Shown one piece after another: positions 2,736 to 16,931 of a stretch of 16,931 nucleotides of DNA. Within the stretch, counting starts at the first letter, position 1. Each line of letters opens with the position of its first letter. The position numbers and the translations under genes are program-made. Origin of the DNA: a virus (lineage: Duplodnaviria; Heunggongvirae; Uroviricota; Caudoviricetes). The notes under the pieces are model-generated. The model was not told where the DNA came from. It saw only the letters and a program-made list of their open reading frames with translations, and searched no databases. The stretch lies in IMG/VR virus record IMGVR_UViG_3300029095_000223, one strand, 5' to 3'.

Positions 2736-2969
2736 ATGTCAACGAAGAACAGAACCCGCAGAACAACAACCCGCAACATCCGCTTTCCTAACCAAATGAT
2801 TGAACAAATTAACATCGCTCTTGAGCAAAAAGGGTCCGGGAATTTCTCAGCCTGGGTCATTGAAGCCTGCCGCCGGAGACTGTGCTCAGAAAAAAGAGTT
2901 TCTTCTGAAGCAAACAAAGAAAAGAGTGACATTACTGAATTGCTCAGAAAACAGGTCAGACCAGATTGA
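2736..2969 (+). CDS. Small basic prophage protein, YnfO/YlcI-like (DUF3950-type) candidate
   Basis: 77-aa ORF MSTKNRTRRTTTRNIRFPNQMIEQINIALEQKGSG... with GGGG Shine-Dalgarno 7 nt upstream. Placement next to the Nu1 homolog resembles ylcI/ynfO in K-12 cryptic prophages. Family assignment is from memory and unverified. Confidence 0.55.
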   Translation: MSTKNRTRRTTTRNIRFPNQMIEQINIALEQKGSGNFSAWVIEACRRRLCSEKRVSSEANKEKSDITELLRKQVRPD

Positions 2970-3026
2970 AGCAATTTAGATAATCGTGCAGACTACGCCC
3001 CCTCATATCACATGGAAGGTTTATCT

Positions 3027-3437
3027 ATGGATCAGGTAGTCATTTTTAAACAAATATTTGATAAAGTTCGAAACGATTTAAACTATCAATGGTTTTATTC
3101 TGAGCTAAAACGTCACAATGTCTCACATTACATTTACTATTTAGCCACAGAGAATGTTCATATTGTATTAAAAAATGATAATACAGTGTTATTAAAGGGC
3201 CTAAAAAACATTGTGTCTGTCAAATTTTCAAAGGATAGGCATCTTATAGAAACGACCTCTAATAAGCTGAAATCCAGAGAGATCACATTTCAGGAATACA
3301 GAAGAAACCTTGCTAAAGCAGGAGTTTTTCGGTGGGTTACAAATATCCACGAACAAAAAAGATATTACTATACCTTTGATAATTCATTACTATTTACTGA
3401 AAGCATCCAGAAAACTACACAGATCTTACCACTCTAA
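3027..3437 (+). CDS. YdfO-like prophage protein (DUF1398-type), 136 aa
   Basis: ORF 3012-3437; the second ATG at 3027 has a GGAAGG Shine-Dalgarno 7 nt upstream and gives 136 aa ([24 protein letters not shown]...). Identity to K-12 YdfO is by recollection of size and context only. Confidence 0.6.
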
Positions 3438-3588
3438 ACCATAACGTCCGGCTTCTCTCACTCCTGAGCCGGACTGCATTGGTTTAATAAAAACCATCAA
3501 CAATGGTGATTTAGATATTCGGAACCATTCAAATATAACAAAACCCCGTAAAAACGAGGTTTATGGATAAATTTTATTATTGAATACA

Positions 3589-3762
3589 TCAGATTAAATT
3601 AATCTTGACATCATAGCTTTCAAGACCCGTCATTTTTTCCCGTGCGGTAAACTGAATACTGGTAACTTCTTTCCCGGTCTTTTTCTTAAGTTCAATAATT
3701 TTTTTTGTTATATATTCAGAAATATCTGCTTCTGCTTTTGTTTTTAAGTTTTCAATATTCAT
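3589..3762 (-). CDS. gnsB: GnsB (Gns-family small protein), 57 aa
   Basis: Not in the ORF track (below its length cutoff). Reverse-complement of 3589-3762 translates MNIENLKTKAEADISEYITKKIIELKKKTGKEVTSIQFTAREKMTGLESYDVKINLI, clearly homologous to GnsA/GnsB. TGA stop at 3589-3591. Confidence 0.8.
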   Translation of the reverse strand: MNIENLKTKAEADISEYITKKIIELKKKTGKEVTSIQFTAREKMTGLESYDVKINLI

Positions 3763-3933
3763 CATTTCCTCTTTTAGTCTGTTATGACTTTCCAGTTACA
3801 CAGTAAGTCGATTATATGGTGCAAACGTGTAAAAGATAAGATGAAACATCGCAATAATCAACATACGATAGTCTAAATTTTACACAAACAGACAAAGAGA
3901 ATTTTCCTGAATTATCAATGCAATAGCATCAAA

Positions 3934-4089
3934 TCAACTCAAGAGCCTTATTGCTGCTTCCAGAATTTCTTCTGAAGTAACATGTCGATCCGCGGCTACA
4001 TAAATGACTTTATGATCTCCGGTCAGAGATGGAAACCCTGCGGCCATTACAGTAAGGTGTGTTTTTTCGCCATTTGGATATTCACGCAT
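3934..4089 (-). CDS. YnfN-like small protein (51 aa from Met40; alternative starts at 4164 giving 76 aa or 4110 giving 58 aa)
   Basis: ORF 3934-4206; the 51-aa form MREYPNGEKTHLTVMAAGFPSLTGDHKVIYVAADRHVTSEEILEAAIRLLS has a GGAG about 13 nt upstream. Size and position (between gnsB and cspI) fit K-12 ynfN as recalled. Start is uncertain. Confidence 0.5.
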   Translation of the reverse strand: MREYPNGEKTHLTVMAAGFPSLTGDHKVIYVAADRHVTSEEILEAAIRLLS

Positions 4090-4205
4090 GATGGTGTTAA
4101 CTCCAGTCATCGCTGGCACTACCACTGCTGGTTCAGAGTTAAAAAAAACTATGATTTTTTTCATGATGTTACCGTAGTATGTGAGTATCCATCGAATAGA
4201 CACCA

Positions 4206-4228
4206 AGCAAAAAAGCTCCCGAAGGAGC
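4206..4228 (-). terminator. Candidate intrinsic terminator downstream of cspI
   Basis: Plus strand aaaaaaaa-gctcc-cgaa-ggagc: on the minus-strand RNA a 5-bp GC stem with a 4-nt loop is followed by a U-rich tract. Lies about 200 nt downstream of the cspI stop. Short stem, so weak. Confidence 0.35.
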
Positions 4229-4435
4229 CTTCATTTTCACTTTTTTAAATCCAACGACAGACGGCTGGCATTTAAGTATTGTGAAATATTATCAAATGTA
4301 ATCATCATTGATTTACAAAAGATACATTTTGCCCCGAAAGGATTCATGTCAGAAACATCAAAAGATGATGTTCTATACTGGGAACCATGACAACACGGGC
4401 ATCTAAAGTGAATATGGTTTGTAATATTGTCTACC

Positions 4436-4648
4436 TCAAAGCGCCACTACATGAACAGCGGCAGGACCTTTAGGTCCGTTCTCAATACCAAATTCAACTT
4501 CCTGATTCTCAGTTAATGTTTTGAAATCGTTGCTCTGAATTGCTGAGAAATGGACAAACACATCTTTGCTGCCATCTTTCGGCGTGATGAAACCAAAACC
4601 TTTTTCAGGGTTAAACCATTTCACTAAACCAGTCATTTTGTTAGACAT
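4436..4648 (-). CDS. cspI: Cold-shock protein CspI (CspA family)
   Basis: 70-aa translation [70 protein letters not shown] has the CspA-family cold-shock domain motifs. AAGG Shine-Dalgarno upstream and a long AT-rich leader. Confidence 0.9.
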
Positions 4649-5010
4649 AATTATTACCTTTTGAAGAAATTAGCCCTTGGGCAGAATGGTCCGAAAAAAA
4701 ATATCAGAGAGAAAAACCAACAAGGAAATCTCAAGAGGTACAAATAATAAAATTATAACAATGACTGCTTCAGATAAATTTGTAACAAACCAGAACACCA
4801 TTAACGCATGATTAACCACCCATAGCAAGGATTACTTTTGTAAAGAAAAACACAGCAATGAAAGAATAGTTTTATTTATTAATAAAACGTGTCATTCTGA
4901 TTAAGACCTTTTATCTTACCCTTAAGATTTCAGGAATTTTGGCTCATGGAAGAGTCCTTTTTATTTAAATTTTACATTCCGCGATGTAAATGTTCCGATT
5001 TAATATTACC

Positions 5011-6034
<1,024 letters not shown>

Positions 6035-6350: not shown

Positions 6351-6566
6351 TTACTCTCCTCTCGCAGCCTTACGCCTGTCTTCTTTAATCTTGAAATAAA
6401 GATTTGTCAGATACGTCAGCAGGCCAAAAACCAGGCTACCCAGCACACCGATTGCAGCCCACTGTGACGGAGTTACTTTATCGAGTAACTGCAATGCCCA
6501 GAAACCAGCATTACCCGCCGATGTGCCATAGGCAACACCTGTTGTTAACTTATCCATTGATTTCAT
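6351..6566 (-). CDS. Holin (EssQ-like), 71 aa
   Basis: From Met26 of the track ORF ([31 protein letters not shown]...[32 protein letters not shown]): two hydrophobic segments and a charged C-terminus. GGTGAGG Shine-Dalgarno before the ATG at 6566. First gene of the lysis cassette. Confidence 0.75.
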
Positions 6567-6785
6567 ATCCTCACCCCGATGTACACGGATGGTGCAATAT
6601 GTTTGAAAAGATCGGAGTCTACGGGGTAGTTTTGACAGCACACGTTGTTCTCAACGGCGCTAAAAAAACATACACATTAAAAATGTGGGTAATTATTTTG
6701 AAAGAAAGTCATATATAAAATAATAATACGAGAAATGTTTTCATATTTAGTGTACTGTATACGGCCATTTATACAGGAAAAGCCT

Positions 6786-6956
6786 ATGTCAGAACGTAAA
6801 AACTCAAAATCACGCCGTAATTATCTCGTTAAATGTTCCTGCCCAAACTGCACCCAAGAGTCAGAACACAGTTTTTCAAGAGTACAAAAAGGTGCCCTTT
6901 TGATCTGCCCTCATTGCAACAAAGTATTCCAGACAAATCTTAAAGCTGTAGCCTGA
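6786..6956 (+). CDS. Small zinc-ribbon protein (56 aa; CxC-x2-C ... C-x2-C), possibly the YnfU-type putative zinc-binding protein
   Basis: From the internal ATG at 6786 with an AGGAAA Shine-Dalgarno 6 nt upstream: MSERKNSKSRRNYLVKCSCPNCTQESEHSFSRVQKGALLICPHCNKVFQTNLKAVA. Four-Cys arrangement typical of zinc ribbons. Name recollection uncertain. Confidence 0.5.
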   Translation: MSERKNSKSRRNYLVKCSCPNCTQESEHSFSRVQKGALLICPHCNKVFQTNLKAVA

Positions 6957-7018
6957 TTGATTTTATTAGTAACAAGTATTTTTTATATTTTAATAATATA
7001 TTTAAAGCAGATAATAAA

Positions 7019-7038
7019 AAACCCGCCTGAGCGGGTTT
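7019..7038 (-). terminator. Intrinsic terminator (minus-strand sense; A-tract on the other side gives possible bidirectional function)
   Basis: aaacccgc-ctga-gcgggttt hairpin (8-bp stem). On the minus strand it is followed by TTTTTATTAT. Lies downstream of cspB (minus) and of the zinc-ribbon gene (plus). Confidence 0.5.
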
Positions 7039-7319
7039 GAGATTGTGGTGCTTTTTGTGGGAGTCATCCACTTACGCACTTTGTTTTGCCATGCCAGCAG
7101 TTAGCTTCTGCTGTAAAACTATTCATGCAGCAAACCTGCACTTCACCACAATGGTTAGCATACTTTTCCTGATTAAGATTTTGCCAAATATGCTAGCCAT
7201 TGTTTCATGTATTGGACCTCCTTACTTTTTATTAAAGAGATCCAATATTCACTACTCTGTCCGTATCTCTACTCAGGCATCAGCCTTCTTCGTTATCGTA
7301 TACAGACGAGCGATGAATT

Positions 7320-7535
7320 TTAATCAGTAATGATGACATTTGCTGCTGCAGGACCTTTAGCACCACTCTCTATAGAGAAGGTAACCTTTTGACCTTCAAA
7401 TAAGGTTCGATAATTATCATTCTGAATCGCAGAAAAATGCACAAACACATCTTTACTACCATCAACAGGAGAAATAAAGCCGAAACCTTTATCAGCGTTA
7501 AACCATTTTACTAAACCAGTCATTTTATTTGACAT
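7320..7535 (-). CDS. cspB: Cold-shock protein CspB (CspA family)
   Basis: 71-aa translation [71 protein letters not shown]. Divergent from cspF as in Qin. Confidence 0.9.
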
Positions 7536-7835
7536 TCTACATTCCTTAACTTGAGCCTTTCGGCATAAATGGTTTGCATAACAGAAACGACTTCGTACTT
7601 AATTGGAGAGACTCAAAGAAGGAATAAGTGAATAACACCTGAAATGAGAACTGCTTTAGTAAACTACTTCGTATATCGTCTGTTCTTCAAACCGACGCAA
7701 TCATTAACGCATAGTTGAACATATGAAGCAATGTTTATTTTAGACATCCAGCCATCTTCAACCCCATCAAAAAACTATAGCTTTCTTCAGGAACGTGTGT
7801 ATAGTGCGCCAAGTTATCAGTATTAAGGAATTTTT

Positions 7836-8048
7836 TTGTCCCGTAAAATGACAGGAATTGTCAAAACCTTTGACGGCAAAAGCGGCAAGGGTCTTATCAC
7901 CCCATCCGATGGTCGTATCGATGTCCAGCTTCATGTTTCAGCGCTCAATCTCCGCGATGCAGAAGAAATTACCACCGGATTACGCGTGGAATTTTGCCGG
8001 ATAAATGGTCTGCGTGGCCCTTCAGCTGCCAATGTTTACCTTTCATGA
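7836..8048 (+). CDS. cspF: Cold-shock protein family member CspF
   Basis: 70-aa translation [70 protein letters not shown]: divergent CspA-family member as recalled for CspF/CspH. Divergent from cspB across an approximately 300-bp promoter region. Confidence 0.9.
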
Positions 8049-8102
8049 GCTATATTAAAGCTTTAATTTCAGGCCCCATCGGATCACACATGGAGAGTTT
8101 TT

Positions 8103-8192
8103 ATGAATAACCCCGTCTGTCTTGATGACTGGTTGATTGGCTTTAAAAGCTTATGCTGTACTTTGGCCGTAATAGCTCTGCTAATAATATAA
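8103..8192 (+). CDS. Candidate 29-aa small hydrophobic protein (unannotated small ORF)
   Basis: ATG at 8103 preceded by GGAGAG at 6-nt spacing; [32 protein letters not shown] at 8190-8192. Only sequence-level support. Confidence 0.25.
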
Positions 8193-8340
8193 TAAGCAGA
8201 CTCATTGTGTTTAGGGACATTGTACTGGAAGAAAACATTTTAAACATCAGGCAAATAACCAAGTCACCAGCTAAATAATAAGTTAACAGACATGAGTCCC
8301 GGGATGAGATTCAACATTACCATTGCCCCATTTAAAGCAC

Positions 8341-8364
8341 AAAACCCGCTCATCAGCGGGTTTT
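8341..8364. terminator. Bidirectional-looking intrinsic terminator hairpin; candidate tR'-like terminator for the Q-dependent late promoter and/or cspF terminator
   Basis: aaaacccgct-catc-agcgggtttt: perfect 10-bp stem with a 4-nt loop. CTACTTTTTC follows on the plus strand; a U-rich run follows on the minus-strand RNA. Confidence 0.5.
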
Positions 8365-8409
8365 CTACTTTTTCTTAACGTCGGGTATACAAAGCCCATC
8401 GTTGAAAAA

Positions 8410-8438
8410 ATTTTATCCATATTTTTTGAAAAATGCAA
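8410..8438 (-). promoter_or_regulatory. Sigma-70 promoter, candidate Q-dependent late promoter (PR'-like)
   Basis: Minus-strand sequence TTGCAT-17 nt-TAAAAT (-35 at 8433-8438, -10 at 8410-8415), about 30 nt downstream of the Q stop, with the hairpin about 40-60 nt further on. This is the canonical position of PR'/qut/tR' in lambdoid phages. Confidence 0.45.
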
Positions 8439-8469
8439 ACATCATGTCGCCATCTTCAGCAAAAATCAT

Positions 8470-9222
8470 TTATCTCGTCACCTTCCTCAATTGCGCTTCC
8501 GCGTATGCTTCTTCCTGCCAGCACTTTGTTACCAGTTTACCAATGACGTCCGCATACCCCTTATACCACTGATAATCGGTCAGGTCTGGTACCAGCTTCT
8601 GGACATGACGTCGTGCCAGCGTGGTCGGTAAACGACTAAACCGGTTTCCATTACAACGCCCACAAATCTTATATACCGGTACGCCATGAAACCGGGTTCT
8701 TTTTTCATCCAGAACAATCCCTTTACCCTTACACCCTCTGCACGCTGTGCTGGCTTCGCCCTTACCATGGCAATGCTGACATAGTTCCTTCACCCATTCT
8801 TCCTTGATTACAGATTCCCCGCGTCTGTAGTGTTTCACCACTTCGCGCAATACATTATAAAATCCCGTACCTGAACAATGCTCACAGCGAGCCTTACTTG
8901 CCGCAGACCTGGAGTAATCAGCAAAGGCAAAACTCACGAGGTAAGGAATAATCTGTAACCGGATTTCTTCACTCAATTTGTTCAATGTCGGGTTATCCAG
9001 TGCCATCGCGTAATTTAGCAGGCCTTCAATCGCAAACTGAGGGTCCTGAACACCAACTTTTGCCAGAAATAAGGCCAACCCAAGTGGTGCTTTCGACTGC
9101 ACCATCCCCTGCGCTGCCATTACATCCGTAATTGTTAAACAACCGGTGCCTGTCGCTGGAGCGTCATCGCTCAATTTTGGAGATTTTGGGGAGTAATATT
9201 TTGGTAAGGCTTCAAGGTTCAT
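8470..9222 (-). CDS. Late-gene antiterminator Q (QuuQ-like), 250 aa
   Basis: From Met11 of the track ORF (MNLEALPKYYSPK...), with a GGAGAA Shine-Dalgarno before the ATG at 9222. Cys-rich zinc-binding motifs (CEHCSGTG, CQHCHGKG, CRGCKGKG, CGRCNG) typical of Q antiterminators. Lies upstream of the lysis cassette. Confidence 0.85.
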   Translation of the reverse strand: MNLEALPKYYSPKSPKLSDDAPATGTGCLTITDVMAAQGMVQSKAPLGLALFLAKVGVQDPQFAIEGLLNYAMALDNPTLNKLSEEIRLQIIPYLVSFAFADYSRSAASKARCEHCSGTGFYNVLREVVKHYRRGESVIKEEWVKELCQHCHGKGEASTACRGCKGKGIVLDEKRTRFHGVPVYKICGRCNGNRFSRLPTTLARRHVQKLVPDLTDYQWYKGYADVIGKLVTKCWQEEAYAEAQLRKVTR

Positions 9223-11099: not shown

Positions 11100-11255
11100 T
11101 TACTCCTCAGGTTCGTAAGCTGTGAAGACAGCGACCTCCGTCTGGCCGGTTCGGATTCGTACCTCGCAGAGGTCTTTCCTCGTTACCAGTGCCGTCACTA
11201 TGACGGTTAAACAGATGACGATCAGGGCGATTAACATCGCCTTTTGCTGCTTCAT
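11100..11255 (-). CDS. hokD: Hok-family membrane toxin HokD (RelF), 51 aa
   Basis: Not in the ORF track as a minus-strand gene. Reverse-complement of 11100-11255 translates MKQQKAMLIALIVICLTVIVTALVTRKDLCEVRIRTGQTEVAVFTAYEPEE, then TAA. Sits 71 nt downstream of relE. Confidence 0.9.
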   Translation of the reverse strand: MKQQKAMLIALIVICLTVIVTALVTRKDLCEVRIRTGQTEVAVFTAYEPEE

Positions 11256-11326
11256 AGCCTGCTTCTCCTGTCAACGCAAAGCAGAAGTGTCACCTTCGGT
11301 GCGAAACAGAGATGTCATGCTTTGGT

Positions 11327-11614
11327 TCAGAGAATGCGTTTGACCGCCTCGCTATATACTTCCGAGCGTTCTCTTTTCCCAACAGAAATCACGAAAACGA
11401 CAACTTTCTCGTCTATAACCTGGTATACAAGGCGATAGCCTGAAGACCGGAGCTTAATCTTGTAACAATCAGGCATACCACGGAGCTTGTTTGCTTCAAT
11501 CCGGGGTGACTCAAGTACTTCAACCAGCTTCTTTTTCAACTGTTCACGTACCGTCGAGCCCAGCTTTCGCCATTCCTTTAGTGCCCGCTCGTCAAAATCC
11601 AGAAAATACGCCAT
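11327..11614 (-). CDS. relE: mRNA interferase toxin RelE
   Basis: 95-aa translation MAYFLDFDERALKEWRKLGSTVREQLKKKLVEVLESPRIEANKLRGMPDCYKIKLRSSGYRLVYQVIDEKVVVFVISVGKRERSEVYSEAVKRIL matches E. coli RelE as recalled. Start overlaps the relB stop. Confidence 0.95.
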   Translation of the reverse strand: MAYFLDFDERALKEWRKLGSTVREQLKKKLVEVLESPRIEANKLRGMPDCYKIKLRSSGYRLVYQVIDEKVVVFVISVGKRERSEVYSEAVKRIL

Positions 11615-11853
11615 CAGAGTTCATCCAGCGTCACACGTACTGGCTTAGGATTACGAAGCCGTTCTTTCACTATCTCCACAAGTTCAGCATCTTCATCACT
11701 CAGGAGTGTCTGTTTGAACGGCAAGCGTTCATTGTCAGCGATATACTCGAGCATGAGACGAAGCGCTTCAGAAGGAGTTACACCCATTTTTTCAAGCGCG
11801 GCGTAAGAACGCGCTTTAAGTTCATCGTCAATACGCAGGTTAATGCTACCCAT
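11614..11853 (-). CDS. relB: Antitoxin RelB
   Basis: 79-aa translation MGSINLRIDDELKARSYAALEKMGVTPSEALRLMLEYIADNERLPFKQTLLSDEDAELVEIVKERLRNPKPVRVTLDEL matches RelB as recalled. Operon order relB-relE-hokD. Confidence 0.95.
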   Translation of the reverse strand: MGSINLRIDDELKARSYAALEKMGVTPSEALRLMLEYIADNERLPFKQTLLSDEDAELVEIVKERLRNPKPVRVTLDEL

Positions 11854-11864
11854 GTCTTACACCT

Positions 11865-11890
11865 CTTGTAATTACAAATGTCATTACAAG
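11865..11890 (-). promoter_or_regulatory. relBE operator/promoter region (relO-like palindrome)
   Basis: cttgtaat-tacaaatgtc-attacaag: inverted repeats immediately upstream of the relB start (11853), consistent with the TTGTAAT-repeat operator bound by RelB2-RelE. Confidence 0.6.
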
Positions 11891-12183
11891 TATCGCACTA
11901 CAACATGCTTAGGGCAAGTCACGAAGGAAGTCAGAAAGTAGTCGTAAGAACGGTGATCACTGTCCGCTTTGTGCCAGGAGCAGCCATTGCTAAGTCCATC
12001 CTGTATTGTGCAGGTCAGCTCGTTTTTAAAGAGTCCGGCCATCATCTTACTGGTACAGACACCATATACTTTGTGACGGTCAGGCTACATATGCACAACT
12101 CAACTTATTCATCTATTTTTTGCTTTAGCATGTCAGTGTTGCTTTCTCGTCGGCGGGTGAGCGGTGACCTGAACTGTCGATAA
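11878..12183 (+). CDS. YdfV-like hypothetical protein (101 aa); coding status doubtful
   Basis: 101-aa ORF divergent from relB whose ATG lies inside the rel operator. Size and position match K-12 ydfV as recalled. No recognisable motifs, no strong Shine-Dalgarno. Confidence 0.4.
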   Translation: MSLQVSHYNMLRASHEGSQKVVVRTVITVRFVPGAAIAKSILYCAGQLVFKESGHHLTGTDTIYFVTVRLHMHNSTYSSIFCFSMSVLLSRRRVSGDLNCR

Positions 12184-12335
12184 AGGAACGTAACACGTTT
12201 TATGCAACACCCGCATGCGGCAGAAAATTATTGCCGAACGTTTACCCCTGTCAACAAGCTTTACTTTCTGAGGCGCGCCAGCCCGCGAGGAAAACAATCT
12301 GAACATCAAACAATTAATGACACAAGAAATACGAT

Positions 12336-12362
12336 TAAAGATTTTTTTGTGCATGCCGATAG
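12336..12362 (+). promoter_or_regulatory. Sigma-28 (FliA) class-3 flagellar promoter for flxA
   Basis: TAAAGATT-11 nt-GCCGATAG versus consensus TAAAGTTT-N11-GCCGATAA. About 25 nt upstream of the flxA Shine-Dalgarno (AAAGGAG) and start. Confidence 0.65.
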
Positions 12363-12385
12363 TGCTTTTTTAAAAGGAGAAATCT

Positions 12386-12718
12386 ATGTCTGTCACAATT
12401 CAGGGAAATACCTCAACCGTTATTTCAAACAACTCCGCCCCGGAAGGAACATCAGAAATAGCCAAAATCACAAGACAAATTCAGGTGCTGACTGAAAAGC
12501 TTGGGAAAATCTCATCGGAAGAGGGGATGACGACACAGCAGAAAAAAGAAATGGCTGCATTGGTACAGAAGCAAATTGAAAGCCTCTGGGCTCAACTGGA
12601 GCAGTTGTTAAGGCAGCAGGCAGAGAAAAAGAATGAAGACGCGACAGTTCAGCCTGATAAAAAAGAAGAGAAAAAAGACGATACAAATACCGCTGGCACC
12701 ATTGATATTTACGTCTAA
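12386..12718 (+). CDS. flxA: FlxA (FliA-regulated protein)
   Basis: 110-aa translation MSVTIQGNTSTVISNNSAPEGTSEIAKITRQIQVLTEKLGKISSEEGMTTQQKKEMAALVQKQIESLWAQLEQ... matches FlxA as recalled. Strong Shine-Dalgarno. Confidence 0.9.
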   Translation: MSVTIQGNTSTVISNNSAPEGTSEIAKITRQIQVLTEKLGKISSEEGMTTQQKKEMAALVQKQIESLWAQLEQLLRQQAEKKNEDATVQPDKKEEKKDDTNTAGTIDIYV

Positions 12719-12732
12719 GTGACAGCCGTATT

Positions 12733-12759
12733 GTGGCCCTCATCGGGCCACTTTTCGCC
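12733..12759 (+). terminator. Intrinsic terminator after flxA
   Basis: gtggccc-tcatc-gggccac hairpin followed by TTTTCGCC, 15 nt downstream of the flxA stop. Confidence 0.55.
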
Positions 12760-13154
12760 ATCAGCCTTTTCTTTAAAGACATATTATCTTTGTATCATTT
12801 CTGATAGTTAACATTACAAGATATAAGTAATGGACGCACTCCCAATTAGTCTATTTAAATCGCCACGAGTTTAACTGACAACCCATGATCAATTATGAAT
12901 TGCAACTATTTCTGTAGTCACTTTTGTGGGGACAGTCCACAAAACTGCCAACTTCCGCTTCTTGCTCTTAGCGGACATTAGCATAGGCTATTTACCATAA
13001 CGCCTCATTACGCGCACCGCCCAGACTGACTCAGCGCGTTTCTGGCATATCCCCGGTAAAACAAGTAACAAACCACCCGAAAATGAACACCAGAAACGCG
13101 ACTTAAGAATCTACCCTATGAATGGATATGCACTCAACCGAATCGATCTTGGTT

Positions 13155-14468
13155 TCAATCTTTTTTATCGGGATCAGGCTTCTTTTTAGGTAACTTCGGG
13201 GGCTTAACTTGCTGATGACTTTGCGTTCGGCGCGTAAGCCAGGGATGGTCAGCTTTAGGTTTAACATAGTATTTTGAGCGTAAATCAATACGGGCATTAT
13301 CCACTCGTTCATGGACACTCTTTTCATCATCCAGTGGTATAGGCTCCGGGCCATCAACATACTTTTCCCAGCCCAGCGCTTTCCCGTCATACAGAACGTT
13401 AATTTCACCGTCAAAGTTCTCGCATACAGTAACAACCGAATGCCTAAGTCGATATCCCCGGCCCTCACTGCGTACCTGAAACGCACTGCTTTTGTACTGG
13501 AAAGTGAGATTTTTAGACAGAACGCGCTTCGCCTGTAGGCTGAAGATATAACCCAGTTCCTCTTCAGAATGGTGCACATCAAGATGAGCATTATCAGTAG
13601 TACGAGGCGACGTAGCGAACCGGTTGTTATAGGCTTCAATAAAGGTCGGCAACCATGCATTTGCTGTTTCAATATCACTGATATTCTGAAGCCGCATTTC
13701 TTTGACCAGCCTGTCCTGTAGTGTCTGATTGGCGCGCTCTACCCGCCCTTTTGCCTGCGGGCTGTTGGCATGGATTGGCTCGATGCCCAGTGTCTTTATC
13801 GCACGAGTGAACTGGGTCAGCTCACCTTCCCGCTCTGGGTTATTTACCCTGAATATACTGTGTCTATCAGAGTAGAGAGCGAGCGGTACGCCATGATCAT
13901 TAAGGTAACCCCGGAGGGTTTCCATGTAAGCCCGGGTTGTTTCAGCAGGCACAAAACGCAACGCCATCAACGCACTGGTGGCATCATCAATGAAAACGAT
14001 CAGTGTACATCTGGGGCCTCGATTTTCAAACCAGTCATGAGGTGAGCCATCAATCTGGATCAGTTCACCGTAAGATGGTCGTCGCATGCGGCGTTGATAT
14101 ATACGGGCAATTTTACGACGGCGTTCACGCCATAACCCCTCTTCTATCATCCACTTTCTGAGAGTTTCAACGGATAAAGATAAACCGTGTATCTCGCGCA
14201 ATTTTTCGCACGCAAACGTAGGTCCAAAATCAGCGTAACGGCCTTTGAGGAGTGAAATTACTGTTGCTCTGAATTCAGTAGAAAAGGAATTATTAGGACG
14301 CTTTCCACGTCGGTGGGAAACCAGACCAGAAGGCCCTTCATTTCTATACCGTTGCACCAGACGTTTAACCTGCCGAATAGAAATGCCAATGCGTGCCGCA
14401 GCTTGTTCCTGAATAATCTGAAGTCGGTGGAGTTCCTTATGACTCATCGTAACAGTCTCTTTGATCAT
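13155..14468 (-). CDS. DDE transposase/integrase-core protein with N-terminal helix-turn-helix (IS481/ISNCY-type), 437 aa
   Basis: ORF with N-terminal HTH-like region (MSHKELHRLQIIQEQAAARIGISIRQVKRLVQRYRNEG) and an rve-like core (LIQIDGSPHDWF...LIVFIDDATS...LYSDRHSIF...ANSPQAKGRVERANQTLQ). Basic C-terminal tail. ATG at 14468 with a GGGGG Shine-Dalgarno upstream. Family assignment is from motif recognition only. Confidence 0.85.
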   Translation of the reverse strand: MIKETVTMSHKELHRLQIIQEQAAARIGISIRQVKRLVQRYRNEGPSGLVSHRRGKRPNNSFSTEFRATVISLLKGRYADFGPTFACEKLREIHGLSLSVETLRKWMIEEGLWRERRRKIARIYQRRMRRPSYGELIQIDGSPHDWFENRGPRCTLIVFIDDATSALMALRFVPAETTRAYMETLRGYLNDHGVPLALYSDRHSIFRVNNPEREGELTQFTRAIKTLGIEPIHANSPQAKGRVERANQTLQDRLVKEMRLQNISDIETANAWLPTFIEAYNNRFATSPRTTDNAHLDVHHSEEELGYIFSLQAKRVLSKNLTFQYKSSAFQVRSEGRGYRLRHSVVTVCENFDGEINVLYDGKALGWEKYVDGPEPIPLDDEKSVHERVDNARIDLRSKYYVKPKADHPWLTRRTQSHQQVKPPKLPKKKPDPDKKD

Positions 14469-14686
14469 GAAAAATCCCCCAGAGAATTGTCTGGGGACAT
14501 TTTAGAATGGTTCAAAGGGGACATTACAGCTTGGTGTTAACAATAGCCTGCTTCTCCGTGCCTTTCGGCACGTAAGAGGCTAACCTACATGTGTCTAGCA
14601 TGAAATTGGCCTCAGATTAATGTTAAGCGTCTTGCAGGACGCGTAATGTTAACTGGGGCTTTTCTCTATCTGCCTTTGGTGTTCGT

Positions 14687-14726
14687 GCCCGAGGCAGATA
14701 GCCTCAAGCACCCGCCGTGATTCTAC
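14687..14726. repeat. 40-bp imperfect direct repeat, copy A (pairs with 16706-16745)
   Basis: gcccgaggcagatagcctcaagcacccgccgtgattctac; 32/40 ungapped identity with copy B, including a 14-nt exact core cctcaagcacccgc. Confidence 0.55.
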
Positions 14727-14951
14727 AAAAACATTACCCACCTTTCCAGCAATTCACAACAACTCCATGCAAATAGTAAGTAGAATAATAAGTTATTAGT
14801 ATTAGCAATTTACTTAGTTTCTAATTTGTGCCAATGATTTTCATTTTTGCATGAAAAATACCTTAACATTTTATATTTACTTACTATTTGTAAGCCCCAT
14901 CAGTTCTTTCTGATGGCGGCTGGTATTTCAGTTCCAGATATAGTATATGCT

Positions 14952-15980
14952 TTACGCCTTAATAGGGTTAATCACATTTCCGCTATCCGTACCATAGTAT
15001 TTTTTTGTAGTCATGCCTTGTTTATAATAATCATTTAACAGTTTGAGAAAGTTTCTTCCTTGCCTCTCATCTTCTATGACTAATTTACCATGCTCATTGG
15101 TCTTAAACTCTTCGTTCTGAAACATTTTTAGCACATCATTCATAGCTTGAACATCATTCTTTTCCAGAACCGTATGGTTACCTTTCTCAGCGATATGAGT
15201 GAGAATTTTTCTCAGTGATGGCTTATGAAGAATAGCTTGTTCAATAACATCTAAACCTTCAATAAGATCAAGTTCTTTAATTGTATTTAATGTTTTTTGT
15301 GCAGCTTCTGTAAACTCAACCTCCAAGCCTACAATAGCCTCAAAACTTTTCTTATGAAATACATAAAATTGATCTTTTATATAAACACAATCGATTTTGT
15401 CATCAAAATTGACTGCGCTGCCATCAAATGATCTTAACTCTTTATCTGTTTTATCAAACAAAGCGAATACGCGCTGAGTCATATTTTGTGGTTCATTTGT
15501 TGTGACTTTCCCCCTGCTGATTTTTCGGAAAGAATAAGTGACGTCAGCCCCCTTTTGGACTTTAATACAATAGGCCCACAAATCATTCTGAACCTCAGCA
15601 AGAGAGGTAAGTACAACTGGTTTATCATTCTTTATATCGTTATTAATAACTTTTGAAAACGATATCGCGTTATTCATAGCATAGGCATAAATCTTATTAT
15701 CAATATCATCATCAATAACAGTATACTTTTTCATCACAATATCATCTTTCGAAGCATGAGAAATAATCTGGTTTGATAAAGTATACTTAAAAAATTTAGC
15801 AATATCTGGAGCGATTGGAGCTTTAATGATTTTAAAATCGAATTTATCAACAACTCTTGCGGTTCTACTCATACCCGCTTTAAGATGTCTAGTAATGAAA
15901 TACAACGATATTTTCGCCGCATCATCATCCTTAAGTTGCTCAGCATACTCTAATAATTCTTCAAGCTTTAACATTTTCAT
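14952..15980 (-). CDS. Uncharacterised soluble protein (342 aa), second gene of an AT-rich two-gene operon; candidate defence-system component (KwaB-like by architecture only)
   Basis: Long clean ORF in very AT-rich DNA, with Lys/Asn/Asp/Ile-biased composition. Its ATG overlaps the upstream gene's TGA (ATGA at 15977-15980). No catalytic motif recognisable by eye. Confidence 0.8.
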   Translation of the reverse strand: MKMLKLEELLEYAEQLKDDDAAKISLYFITRHLKAGMSRTARVVDKFDFKIIKAPIAPDIAKFFKYTLSNQIISHASKDDIVMKKYTVIDDDIDNKIYAYAMNNAISFSKVINNDIKNDKPVVLTSLAEVQNDLWAYCIKVQKGADVTYSFRKISRGKVTTNEPQNMTQRVFALFDKTDKELRSFDGSAVNFDDKIDCVYIKDQFYVFHKKSFEAIVGLEVEFTEAAQKTLNTIKELDLIEGLDVIEQAILHKPSLRKILTHIAEKGNHTVLEKNDVQAMNDVLKMFQNEEFKTNEHGKLVIEDERQGRNFLKLLNDYYKQGMTTKKYYGTDSGNVINPIKA

Positions 15981-16591
15981 TCCTTATGGGATTCAGCATA
16001 AAAAAGTTTTGGGCCCACGTCCTCAACATCAAGAAGATCATCTTCCTCCAAATACTTTGATTTAGTCAAAACCATACCAGTGCGTTTTTTGTCGCTTTCT
16101 AAATCCAAATATGTAACTTGATATAAAGTATAATTAATACTTATTGTAGGATTTATAAGTATCATGCTTGAATTAATATATATTAAAGCCGTTACCGTTA
16201 ACAATATTGCTATAGGTATAACATTAGTTAAAGTGGATAGATCCTGAAATACAAACGGAATTATATATGTAAAAAGATAGCTTATTGATTCATTGTTTTT
16301 ATTTTCAATATCTATAACTCTTACAGTTCTACCACTAGTGGCGCATCGACGTTTTATATTTTTTAAAAAAATTGTTAATCCTACAATACCAAATAATGAT
16401 AATACACCAATGACACTGACCGCGCCAAAGTATTTAAAGAAAATAGTTAATGATTCAACACTTATACCTTTCCAATTTAAATAGCTTCTATAAGTATACA
16501 ATTGCACAAAACACATGATAAAGAATAGGGGAAGGTATGACACTATAAATAGCGAAACTCTAGCACCTAAATGTAGTTTATTTACTCTCAT
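15977..16591 (-). CDS. Predicted integral membrane protein (204 aa, about 4 TM helices plus acidic C-terminal tail), first gene of the two-gene operon; candidate defence-system membrane component (KwaA-like by architecture only)
   Basis: Hydrophobic segments VSLFIVSYLPLFFIMCFVQLYTY, YFGAVSVIGVLSLFGIVGLTIFL, ISYLFTYIIPFVF and VIPIAILLTVTALIYINSSMILI, with a basic loop KNIKRRCATSGR. Translationally coupled to the downstream gene. Confidence 0.8.
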   Translation of the reverse strand: MRVNKLHLGARVSLFIVSYLPLFFIMCFVQLYTYRSYLNWKGISVESLTIFFKYFGAVSVIGVLSLFGIVGLTIFLKNIKRRCATSGRTVRVIDIENKNNESISYLFTYIIPFVFQDLSTLTNVIPIAILLTVTALIYINSSMILINPTISINYTLYQVTYLDLESDKKRTGMVLTKSKYLEEDDLLDVEDVGPKLFYAESHKE

Positions 16592-16705
16592 AACTACCCC
16601 ACAGCCTACACGTCTAGTATTTTATGTTATTTCGAATAATTATGCATCAGATTACCATCCTACAATTGTGCATAAAACGAGCATTTTGCTGATTTTTCTG
16701 CGGAT

Positions 16706-16745
16706 GCCTGAGACAGACAACCTCAAGCACCCGCAGCAATTTTAC
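16706..16745. repeat. 40-bp imperfect direct repeat, copy B (pairs with 14687-14726)
   Basis: gcctgagacagacaacctcaagcacccgcagcaattttac; same orientation as copy A. Together the two copies bracket the two-gene AT-rich operon. Confidence 0.55.
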
Positions 16746-16931
16746 TTAACTCCCGCTACCTCGCCAATATGAAATCAATAAGAAAGGTGCTCCATAAAAT
16801 CACTCCTTCTCTTCTTTATCGTAGTGGAGTTGACCAATTTTGATAAGAGGGCGTCCCTGAGATTTGCGGTGTAGATTGGTATCGCGCAGAGAATACACAC
16901 AGCCACAATATTCCTGCTGATAGAATTTTTC

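What the first reader, a model, noticed from the sequence alone, without database searches (positions are those of the whole stretch)
14952..16591. AT-rich, translationally coupled two-gene cassette (4-TM membrane protein plus 342-aa soluble protein): candidate anti-phage defence system
Directly seen: two same-strand ORFs with an ATGA stop/start overlap, in DNA visibly far more AT-rich than the surrounding prophage, placed next to a transposase at the prophage edge. This is the typical signature of a horizontally acquired accessory module. A small multi-pass membrane protein followed by a roughly 340-aa cytoplasmic protein is the architecture of Kiwa (KwaA/KwaB), but I cannot verify homology and several other two-gene systems (membrane effector plus sensor) look the same. 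If it matches no known family, it is a candidate new defence or abortive-infection module.
Basis: partly seen in the sequence, partly recalled or inferred. Interest (0 to 1): 0.85.

Follow-up and report, generated by a model that had tools for sequence, protein, structure and literature searches.

The report
Known Kiwa anti-phage system in prophage

Summary
Two minus-strand genes, 204 aa (15977-16591) and 340/342 aa (14952-15974/15980), lie in a 1,977-bp block of 32% GC.

Both are Kiwa proteins:
- PADLOC KwaA E=1e-101 and KwaB E=5e-159, both full length.
- Pfam KwaB is above its gathering score.
- AlphaFold models match only the solved E. coli O55 KwaA (TM 0.76-0.80) and KwaB (TM 0.6-0.66) in the PDB.

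Sequence identity to that archetype is only 15-21%, and the NCBIfam equivalog cut-offs are missed. This is therefore a divergent Kiwa clade, found in Vibrio, Aeromonas, Klebsiella and others, usually in prophages or defence islands.

RefSeq already labels these genes "KwaB-like" and, in newer records, "KwaA family". 156 of 5,426 complete E. coli genomes carry the cassette at >=99.7% identity.

- The cassette is in the prophage interior, between replication genes/QueH and the Q antiterminator, not at the edge.
- The neighbouring transposase is a truncated, incidental remnant.
- The conserved kwaB start is 6 nt downstream of the ATGA overlap.
- In Kiwa the membrane protein is the sensor and the soluble protein the DNA-binding effector.

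Side note: the cassette is inserted in the 5' leader of a hok/sok locus and sits behind the hok-type promoter.

Novelty: already known. Interest: low.

The parts
15977..16591 (-). kwaA: 204-aa inner-membrane protein with 4 TM helices plus a cytoplasmic beta-barrel formed by the 77-101 loop and the C-terminal tail. It is the sensor/anchor subunit of Kiwa.
   Evidence: ORF. PADLOC KwaA PDLC00212 E=1.3e-101, residues 1-203 on profile 2-204/205. NCBIfam KwaA 81 bits, below the cut-off of 100. The 100%-identical cluster P0100 is tagged Pfam PF28043 'KwaA'. TM analysis. AF2 model pLDDT 80.9. Foldseek to 9mrx_A KwaA: E=9.4e-11, TM 0.76/0.80, rmsd 3.4 A.
14952..15974 (-). kwaB: 340-aa soluble DUF4868 protein, the DNA-binding effector of Kiwa. 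The start used here is the conserved Met; an in-frame ATG two codons upstream (15980) gives the 342-aa ORF with the ATGA overlap.
   Evidence: ORF. PADLOC KwaB PDLC00223 E=5.3e-159, residues 3-341 on profile 1-338/339. Pfam PF16162 60.1 bits, above GA 26.3. RefSeq CDS of 340 aa named 'Kiwa anti-phage protein KwaB-like domain-containing protein'. AF2 pLDDT 86.4. Foldseek to KwaB 9mrx_D/9nyu_A/9mtn: E=5e-14 to 3e-11, TM 0.58-0.67.
14727..16703 (-). The inserted Kiwa cassette as a whole: 1,977 bp, 31.9% GC, comprising 5'UTR, kwaA, kwaB and a 225-nt non-coding tail.
   Evidence: Empty-site comparison with strain OSUCMP42NDM. L002 1501-1685 matches window 14543-14726 and L002 1644-1871 matches window 16704-16931, with a 42-nt overlap in the empty site. 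GC values.
16705..16767 (-). Probable kwaAB promoter. It is a hok-type sigma-70 promoter (-35 TTGGCG, 17 nt, -10 TAAAAT) plus the first ~28 nt of a hok mRNA leader (repeat copy 2). The inferred transcription start is near 16732, giving a ~140-nt 5'UTR.
   Evidence: Promoter-like site 16767..16739. 41-nt direct repeat D1, copy 16705-16745. The stretch is 95% identical to the hok promoter region of the empty site. The register with Rfam model position 1 at 14713 is inferred. The start site itself is not shown.
14542..14726 (-). hok/sok 5' leader (repeat copy 1 at 14686-14726) immediately downstream of the cassette. Its hok ORF has been separated from it. This is the target locus into which Kiwa was inserted, not part of Kiwa itself.
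   Evidence: Rfam RF01794 'sok' at 14542-14713(-), 105.6 bits (GA 59), model 1-157/157. Repeat D1. In relatives the leader is contiguous with hokD.
13340..14541 (-). Context only: a truncated ISNCY-family (IS1202/ISEsa1-like) transposase remnant, not associated with Kiwa mobility. The 437-aa ORF 13155-14468 runs on through the downstream ydfW CDS (13155-13304), as annotated.
   Evidence: RefSeq pseudogene 'ISNCY family transposase, missing C-terminus'. Pfam HTH_32/HTH_29 plus a sub-threshold rve_3. K-12 homology ends at window 13339, and the homology shared with other strains resumes at 14543. The remnant is absent in Kiwa-bearing strain YZLc23-1.
16800..16931 (-). Context only: the 3' end of prophage-borne queH (epoxyqueuosine reductase). 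It is the upstream neighbour and is cut by the window end.
   Evidence: RefSeq annotation of the near-identical strain (1 mismatch in 16,931 bases) mapped to window coordinates.

Best explanation
This is a complete, functional Kiwa anti-phage defence operon (kwaA then kwaB) of a divergent clade. It is carried as a 2-kb moron in the nin-like region of a Qin/Kim-type cryptic lambdoid prophage of E. coli.

The mechanism is inferred by homology to the characterised E. coli O55/ECOR Kiwa systems:
1. KwaA, a 4-TM protein with a cytoplasmic beta-barrel, assembles as tetramers in the inner membrane and tethers KwaB dimers.
2. [quoted passage not shown]
3. KwaB then binds the incoming DNA through its DUF4868 domain. 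This blocks phage replication and late transcription without killing the cell.
4. Lambda Gam-type DNA mimics would be the expected counter-defence.

Expression in the lysogen most likely comes from a captured hok-type promoter directly upstream of kwaA.

What is shown here: gene identity, fold, topology, the insertion boundaries, variable presence and purifying selection. What is inferred: the anti-phage phenotype, the trigger, DNA binding and promoter use.
For: Sequence:
- PADLOC KwaA 1.3e-101 and KwaB 5.3e-159, both end to end. Every other PADLOC hit is also KwaA or KwaB.
- Pfam KwaB above its gathering score.
- Profile searches of the PDB return only Kiwa chains as significant: KwaB 4e-10, KwaA 1.2e-7.

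Structure:
- Confident AF2 models.
- Foldseek finds only solved KwaB (E 5e-14, TM about 0.6-0.66) and KwaA (E 9e-11, TM 0.76-0.80) over full length.
- 4 TM helices, N-in/C-in topology and a beta-rich loop and C-tail match the published KwaA architecture (PMC11785009).
- KwaB residues aligned to three of the four alignable O55 DNA-contact residues are kept: D169->D193, K187->K211, R233->R257 (residue list from PMC11785009).

Gene order and selection:
- kwaA-kwaB adjacency is kept in Klebsiella and Vibrio copies.
- pN 0.09-0.14 against saturated pS.

Context:
- Accessory gene: 156 of 5,426 E. coli genomes.
- An empty site exists, and relatives carry alternative cargo at the neighbouring slot.
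- The same subtype sits in a Klebsiella defence island (MazEF, DarT, UvrD-like) and in V. cholerae prophages.
- RefSeq already names both proteins Kiwa.

Published function: five diverse Kiwa operons all gave anti-phage activity (PMC11785009).
Against: - No experiment on this copy. I could not establish whether any of the tested operons (O55, ECOR8/12/49, D9, Ralstonia) belongs to this clade.
- Identity to the solved O55 proteins is only 15% (KwaB) and 21% (KwaA).
- NCBIfam equivalog scores are below cut-off: 58 against 200, and 81 against 100.
- One aligned DNA-contact residue is not kept (R167->N191). Two others (N134, R142) and the KwaA-KwaB interface residues could not be aligned. Trigger, specificity and even effector chemistry could therefore differ.
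- The host prophage is a defective, partly decayed element. AT-rich DNA of this kind is often H-NS-silenced in E. coli (my own knowledge), so expression is not guaranteed.
- No intrinsic terminator or experimentally mapped promoter is known for the cassette.
Confidence: 0.82

Rival explanations
1. The genes are Kiwa homologues but the locus is a silent or decaying relic of a cryptic prophage. It gives no present-day defence function in this strain.
For: The surrounding prophage is defective and rearranged. It has partial terminase and tail genes, an IS remnant, and a hok locus split by a 3.27-kb block. The cassette is 32% GC, the kind of DNA that H-NS commonly silences (my own knowledge). The promoter assignment is only a consensus match.
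Against: Both ORFs are intact and >=99.7% identical in 156 genomes. Purifying selection across genera is strong. A complete hok-type promoter, 95% identical to the one in the empty site, lies directly upstream. The Shine-Dalgarno motifs are intact.
Confidence: 0.1
2. A Kiwa-fold pair that works differently from the O55 paradigm. For example, it could be an abortive-infection or membrane-permeabilising module in which the 4-TM protein is the effector. Or it could be a prophage superinfection-exclusion device that blocks DNA entry rather than replication.
For: Identity to the characterised system is very low and the NCBIfam equivalog thresholds are missed. The solved KwaA tetramer has a central pore and was compared to an ion channel (PMC11785009). 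The prophage location fits superinfection exclusion.
Against: Both proteins share the full-length fold with the O55 proteins, including the KwaA beta-barrel that docks KwaB. The DUF4868 core residues are conserved. Published Kiwa does not act by abortive infection, and five operons from different clusters all behaved as direct defence (PMC11785009).
Confidence: 0.07
3. It is not a defence system at all but a housekeeping or metabolic pair, such as a transporter plus an enzyme.
For: None beyond a sub-threshold LrgA-like match of the membrane protein (E=0.1, 13 bits against a cut-off of 28).
Against: No transporter or enzyme family hit appeared in Pfam, NCBIfam or the PDB. The pair is present in only 2.9% of E. 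coli genomes. It is always found in mobile or defence contexts.
Confidence: 0.01

Closest known systems
Kiwa defence system of E. coli O55:H7 RM12579 (KwaA P0DW45 / KwaB P0DW46; PDB 9mrg, 9mrr, 9mrx, 9mtn, 9nyu; Doron et al. 2018 as cited in PMC11785009; Zhang, Todeschini et al., PMC11785009)
   Same: - Two-gene operon in the order kwaA then kwaB.
- KwaA has 4 TM helices and a cytoplasmic beta-barrel built from ICL1 and the C-terminus.
- KwaB has the same full-length fold, including DUF4868.
- The system is accessory and carried on a mobile element.
- Fold matches: TM 0.76-0.80 for KwaA and 0.58-0.67 for KwaB.
   Different: - Only 21% (KwaA) and 15% (KwaB) identity.
- The proteins here are slightly longer: 204 against 195 aa, and 340 against 315 aa.
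- Both fall below the NCBIfam KwaA/KwaB equivalog cut-offs.
- One of the four alignable DNA-contact residues is changed (R167->N191).
- Phage specificity is unknown.
PADLOC Kiwa subfamily models PDLC00212 (KwaA) and PDLC00223 (KwaB); RefSeq WP_001265627.1 / WP_175077931.1
   Same: Essentially the same proteins. The matches are end to end at 337 and 527 bits. RefSeq already annotates them as 'KwaA family protein' and 'Kiwa anti-phage protein KwaB-like domain-containing protein'.
   Different: Nothing of substance. This window is one of 156 near-identical E. coli copies.
Same-clade Kiwa cassettes in Klebsiella sp. (defence island) and Vibrio cholerae (lambdoid prophage)
   Same: 72-87% protein identity. 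The gene lengths and junction are the same, and GC is about 31% whatever the host.
   Different: The flanks are unrelated, and DNA homology stops at the ORF boundaries. There is no hok leader at those sites. The neighbours are MazEF/DarT/UvrD-like genes, or phage lysis genes with pRha, KilA-N or a SduA_C-domain gene.
Moron/defence hotspots of lambdoid prophages (nin-region cargo)
   Same: The cassette lies between the replication genes and the Q antiterminator. It has its own promoter and differs in GC content from the prophage backbone. The adjacent slot holds QueH, a RelA/SpoT-domain protein, a DUF4209 protein, methyltransferases or other cargo in different strains.
   Different: Kiwa itself is not in that exchangeable slot. 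It is inserted about 30 nt into the hok mRNA leader downstream of it, bracketed by a diverged 41-42-nt duplication.

Membership tests
Kiwa (KwaA/KwaB) | Two adjacent same-strand genes, with kwaA (membrane) upstream of kwaB | tested here: met
   Minus-strand ORFs 15977-16591 and 14952-15974/15980 are overlapping or 2 nt apart. The same order is seen in Klebsiella and Vibrio copies.
Kiwa (KwaA/KwaB) | KwaB carries the DUF4868 / Pfam PF16162 KwaB domain | tested here: met
   PF16162 at 60.1 bits against a gathering score of 26.3, residues 132-319. Eight PADLOC KwaB models hit, the best at 5.3e-159.
Kiwa (KwaA/KwaB) | KwaA sequence family membership | tested here: met
   Twelve PADLOC KwaA models hit, the best at 1.3e-101 and full length. 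The identical cluster P0100 and all homologues carry Pfam PF28043 'KwaA'. A profile of the homologues hits only KwaA chains in the PDB, at 1.2e-7.
Kiwa (KwaA/KwaB) | KwaA has four TM helices plus a cytoplasmic beta-barrel made from ICL1 and the C-terminus (PMC11785009) | tested here: met
   Hydrophobic segments at 12-32, 54-77, 103-116 and 121-146, with positive charges inside. The AF2 model has helices 8-33, 45-86, 104-114 and 121-140, and strands 88-97, 155-163, 169-176, 186-193 and 196-201. TM-score to 9mrx_A is 0.76/0.80.
Kiwa (KwaA/KwaB) | KwaB full-length fold equals solved KwaB | tested here: met
   Foldseek finds only KwaB chains as significant (E 5e-14 to 3e-11, TM 0.58-0.67, about 350 aligned columns). 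The next hit has E=0.37.
Kiwa (KwaA/KwaB) | Conservation of KwaB DNA-contact residues (O55: N134, R142, R167, D169, K187, R233) | tested here: inconclusive
   Three of the four alignable residues are kept (D193, K211, R257) and R167 aligns to N191. N134 and R142 lie outside the HMMER alignments. No structure-based residue mapping was available.
Kiwa (KwaA/KwaB) | KwaA-KwaB supercomplex formation and its interface residues | not tested
   The alignments do not reach the KwaA C-terminal interface residues. No multimer prediction tool was available.
Kiwa (KwaA/KwaB) | Anti-phage or anti-conjugation phenotype | not testable with these tools
   This needs plaque and conjugation assays. Published data show the phenotype for five other Kiwa operons (PMC11785009).
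NCBIfam equivalogs NF041622 (KwaA) / NF041623 (KwaB) | Score at or above the curated equivalog cut-off | tested here: not met
   KwaA 81.1 bits against 100, and KwaB 58.4 bits against 200. The pair is therefore a different clade from the equivalog exemplars. This does not argue against family membership.
hok/sok type I toxin-antitoxin locus (flank, not the cassette) | Match to the hok leader/Sok RNA covariance model | tested here: met
   RF01794 at 14542-14713(-), 105.6 bits against a gathering score of 59, full model. The hok ORF is displaced to 11100-11255.
LrgA/holin-like membrane proteins | Pfam PF03788 above its gathering score | tested here: not met
   13 bits against a cut-off of 28, E=0.1.

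The most novel reading that the evidence does not exclude
This clade is only 15-21% identical to the solved O55 Kiwa system. It may differ from that paradigm in trigger or target range, for example by recognising different phage entry machineries or escaping Gam-type inhibition. Its precise insertion about 30 nt into a hok mRNA leader, behind the hok promoter, may reflect a recurrent route by which small defence cassettes are captured and constitutively expressed in cryptic prophages. Neither possibility is excluded by my data, and neither has direct support.
Probability: 0.12. Interest if true: 0.35.

Novelty: already known. Interest (0 to 1): 0.12.

Why it matters
It matters little for discovery. 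Kiwa is among the most abundant known defence systems. PADLOC's KwaA and KwaB profiles match this pair end to end, and RefSeq already names it.

The useful results are:
2. A corrected context. The cassette is an interior prophage moron, inserted in a hok/sok leader behind a hok-type promoter. The adjacent IS remnant is irrelevant.
3. The point that this E. coli clade is structurally Kiwa but very distant in sequence from the only solved example. It would therefore be a reasonable second representative for testing how general the membrane-sensing/DNA-capture mechanism and Gam sensitivity are.

Tried and rejected
- **Local Pfam copy for KwaA.** It gave only a sub-threshold LrgA match. The KwaA family PF28043 is not in that copy and appeared only as a precomputed tag.
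- **NCBIfam.** Hits were below the equivalog cut-offs. I read this as clade distance, not non-membership.
- **Phage collection.** No match by DNA or by protein. Plasmids gave only two distant KwaB-like hits.
- **Matching to the tested operons.** I tried to find whether this clade is one of ECOR8/12/49/D9. The paper's supplement is not held and no ECOR, D9 or RM12579 strain appeared among the listed carriers. The residue numbering given for ECOR49 does not fit this KwaA or KwaB (my reading), so this remains unresolved.
- **Transposase-mediated mobilisation.** Rejected. The IS is a truncated remnant and is absent in Kiwa-bearing strain YZLc23-1.
- **The 41-nt flanking repeat as a target-site duplication or att site.** Rejected in that simple form. 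The copies are only 80% identical, and both are hok promoter/leader sequence that is present once in the empty site.
- **Intrinsic terminator after kwaB.** None was found by the scan. The 234-nt tail folds somewhat better than shuffles (z=-3.4), and I attach no meaning to that.
- **Plus-strand ORFs inside the cassette.** These are 44-85 aa, have no support, and look like chance ORFs.
Full report
**1. Observation**

The window holds two minus-strand ORFs at exactly the reported coordinates. One is 204 aa at 15977-16591. The other is 342 aa at 14952-15980. They share the tetranucleotide ATGA.

Composition drops to 29-33% GC over roughly 14750-16750, against 46-50% just to the left. The inserted block defined below is 31.9% GC against 45.6% for the rest of the window. 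Other AT-rich islands exist in the window, at 2750-5250 and 6500-8500.

The small protein has four hydrophobic segments, at about 12-32, 54-77, 103-116 and 121-146. Positive charges are concentrated in the N-terminus, the 77-101 loop and the C-tail, which gives an N-in/C-in topology. The large protein has no hydrophobic segment.

- Homologues and RefSeq start the large protein at its third codon, giving 340 aa. An AAGGA motif is well spaced for that ATG and abuts the first one. The true junction is probably stop, 2 nt, start.
- The 'transposase at the prophage edge' description is wrong (see section 3).

**2. Identity**

Sequence evidence:
- Against PADLOC, the 204-aa protein matches KwaA model PDLC00212 end to end (E=1.3e-101), plus eleven other KwaA models.
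- The 342-aa protein matches KwaB model PDLC00223 end to end (E=5.3e-159), plus seven other KwaB models. No other defence family appears.
- Pfam gives PF16162 (KwaB) at 60.1 bits against a gathering score of 26.3.
- NCBIfam's KwaA and KwaB equivalogs hit but fall below their cut-offs: 81 against 100 bits, and 58 against 200 bits.
- In the PDB the only sequence hits are Kiwa chains. Single-sequence searches give about 1e-5 to 1e-6. Profiles built from 59 and 51 homologues give 4e-10 and 1.2e-7.

Structural evidence:
- AlphaFold2 models built on those alignments are confident, with pLDDT 86.4 and 80.9.
- In Foldseek searches of the PDB, the KwaB model matches only solved KwaB chains (9mrx, 9nyu, 9mtn), at E 5e-14 to 3e-11, TM 0.58-0.67 and 15% identity.
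- The KwaA model matches only solved KwaA chains (9mrx_A, 9mrr, 9mrg), at E down to 9e-11, TM 0.76/0.80, rmsd 3.4 A and 21% identity.
- The next-best hits have E around 0.4-1.
- The KwaA model shows four helices plus five strands contributed by the 88-97 loop and the C-tail. The published KwaA has TM1-4 with a beta-barrel formed by ICL1 and the C-terminus (PMC11785009).

The solved proteins are the archetypal E. coli O55 Kiwa (P0DW45/P0DW46). This is therefore a genuine Kiwa system, but of a clade far from the archetype.

**3. Context**

The window is identical, bar one base, to E. coli strain DP051. There it lies in a Qin/Kim-like lambdoid cryptic prophage. The gene order is:

int-xis-exo ... 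dicB ... cI/cro-ydaT-replication-DUF977-QueH-KwaA-KwaB-[ISNCY pseudogene]-ydfW-flxA-ydfV-relBE-hokD-rem-ydfU-ydfT(Q)-lysis-nohA-head-tail.

The cassette is thus in the prophage interior, in the nin-like region between the replication genes and the Q antiterminator.

The 'transposase' ORF (13155-14468) is a truncated ISNCY remnant that reads on into neighbouring sequence. Strain YZLc23-1 carries QueH-KwaA-KwaB-hokD-rem-ydfU with no IS at all. The IS is therefore incidental.

**4. How the cassette got there**

- A 41-nt imperfect direct repeat (80% identity) brackets the cassette, at 14686-14726 and 16705-16745.
- The left copy is the start of a hok/sok leader. Rfam RF01794 matches 14542-14713(-) over the full model at 105.6 bits, against a gathering score of 59.
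- In strain OSUCMP42NDM, QueH is directly followed by hokD. The two window flanks map onto that empty site with a 42-nt overlap.
- Kiwa is therefore a 1,977-bp insertion (14727-16703), about 30 nt into the hok mRNA leader. The -10 region and leader start are duplicated on either side.
- This leaves the original hok-type promoter (-35 TTGGCG, 17 nt, -10 TAAAAT; 16767-16739) directly upstream of kwaA. I infer that it drives kwaAB in the lysogen from a start near 16732. That start site is not demonstrated.
- Upstream of the hok promoter, relatives carry different cargo in place of QueH. Examples are a RelA/SpoT-domain protein, a DUF4209 protein, methyltransferases, and DUF1627 with an ATPase. The neighbourhood is a typical variable hotspot.

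**5. Distribution and selection**

- 156 of 5,426 complete E. coli genomes (2.9%) carry the cassette at >=99.7% identity. It is single-copy and chromosomal.
- No sequenced phage in the INPHARED set has it, by DNA or by protein.
- The clade is spread through Gammaproteobacteria, including Klebsiella, Aeromonas, Vibrio, Shewanella, Edwardsiella, Photobacterium, Yersinia and Enterobacter, with more distant members in Bacteroidota.
- In Klebsiella it sits in a defence island with MazEF, DarT plus an ADP-ribosylglycohydrolase, and a UvrD-like helicase. In V. cholerae it sits in lambdoid prophages next to lysis genes.
- DNA homology between these copies and the window stops at the ORF boundaries. 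All copies are about 31% GC in flanks of about 45% GC.
- Non-synonymous divergence is 0.09-0.14, while synonymous sites are saturated at 0.68-0.87. This indicates strong purifying selection on both genes.

**6. Mechanism**

The mechanism is inferred from family knowledge (PMC11785009).
- KwaA tetramers and KwaB dimers form a membrane supercomplex.
- Phage attachment, DNA ejection or conjugation perturbs the membrane, and KwaA senses this.
- KwaB binds the incoming DNA through DUF4868. This blocks replication and late transcription without abortive infection.
- Lambda Gam inhibits KwaB, and RecBCD buffers that inhibition.

For this copy I can show the fold, the topology and partial conservation of the DNA-contact residues. 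D169->D193 is invariant in the clade. K187->K211 and R233->R257 are kept. R167->N191 is not. The interface residues and the remaining contacts could not be aligned.

**7. Rivals**

- A silent relic is possible but disfavoured. The ORFs are intact and conserved, selection is strong, and an intact promoter lies upstream.
- A mechanistically divergent Kiwa-fold system cannot be excluded at 15-21% identity. It has no positive support.
- A non-defence function is effectively excluded.

**8. Novelty and verdict**

PADLOC's KwaA and KwaB profiles match this pair end to end. RefSeq already labels the proteins 'KwaB-like' and, in newer records, 'KwaA family protein'. The published survey counted Kiwa in 1,713 E. 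coli genomes.

It is already known, and interest is low.

The only mildly new details are the exact insertion into a hok leader behind its promoter, and the nested disruption of that hok locus.

Noticed in passing
window 14542-14726 and 16705-16767 (minus strand): The Kiwa cassette is inserted about 30 nt into the 5' leader of a hok/sok locus. The hok promoter (-10 region) and leader start are duplicated as 41-nt repeats of 80% identity on both sides. kwaAB therefore sits directly behind the original hok-type promoter. An empty site where QueH abuts hokD exists in strain OSUCMP42NDM.
   Followed up: yes
window 11100-11269 and 11270-14558: The same hok locus is split a second time. In relatives the leader runs straight into the hokD ORF. 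Here a 3,273-bp block (relE, relB, ydfV, flxA, ydfW and the ISNCY remnant; 11270-14542) separates the leader (14543-14713) from the hokD ORF (11100-11255). A 16-nt stretch is repeated at both joints. This may explain why K-12-type hokD, downstream of relBE, lacks its own sok/leader (the K-12 point is from my own knowledge).
   Followed up: partly
window 16800-16931 (minus strand; continues beyond the window), L001 20101-20766: The prophage carries queH (epoxyqueuosine reductase) as cargo between DUF977 and the hok promoter. In other strains the same slot holds a RelA/SpoT-domain protein, a DUF4209 protein, SAM-dependent methyltransferases, DUF7167, a SMEK-domain protein, or DUF1627 with an ATPase. 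Several of these look like candidate defence or modification cargo. I did not examine them.
   Followed up: no
window 13155-14468 (minus strand): The 437-aa 'transposase' ORF is an artefact of read-through. It is a truncated ISNCY (IS1202/ISEsa1-like) transposase with HTH domains and a sub-threshold rve_3 match. Its ORF runs on through the ydfW CDS (13155-13304). RefSeq annotates it as a pseudogene plus ydfW.
   Followed up: partly
window 4409-4794 and 7304-7696 (minus strand): Two full-length matches to the cspA thermoregulator RNA (RF01766; 112.8 and 158.8 bits). They cover the 5'UTRs and coding regions of the Qin prophage cold-shock genes cspI and cspB. Both lie inside the other AT-rich islands of the window.
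   Followed up: no
window 14727-14951 (minus strand): The cassette has a 225-nt AT-rich non-coding tail after kwaB. It contains a 7-bp hairpin right after the stop codon (CCATCAG-AAAGAA-CTGATGG, with no U-tract) and a perfect 13-nt inverted repeat 95 nt apart (14770-14782 / 14878-14890). The tail folds better than shuffles (z=-3.4). It is not conserved in the Klebsiella or Vibrio copies, and its function is unknown.
   Followed up: partly
L006 3108-10978 (Klebsiella sp.); L008 6094-7590 (V. cholerae): The same Kiwa clade sits beside MazE/PemK, DarT with an ADP-ribosylglycohydrolase, a UvrD-like helicase and a Ymh-family protein in Klebsiella. In V. cholerae prophages it sits beside pRha or KilA-N genes and, in L008, a SduA_C (Shedu-like) gene. 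The kwaAB block is about 31% GC in every host.
   Followed up: no
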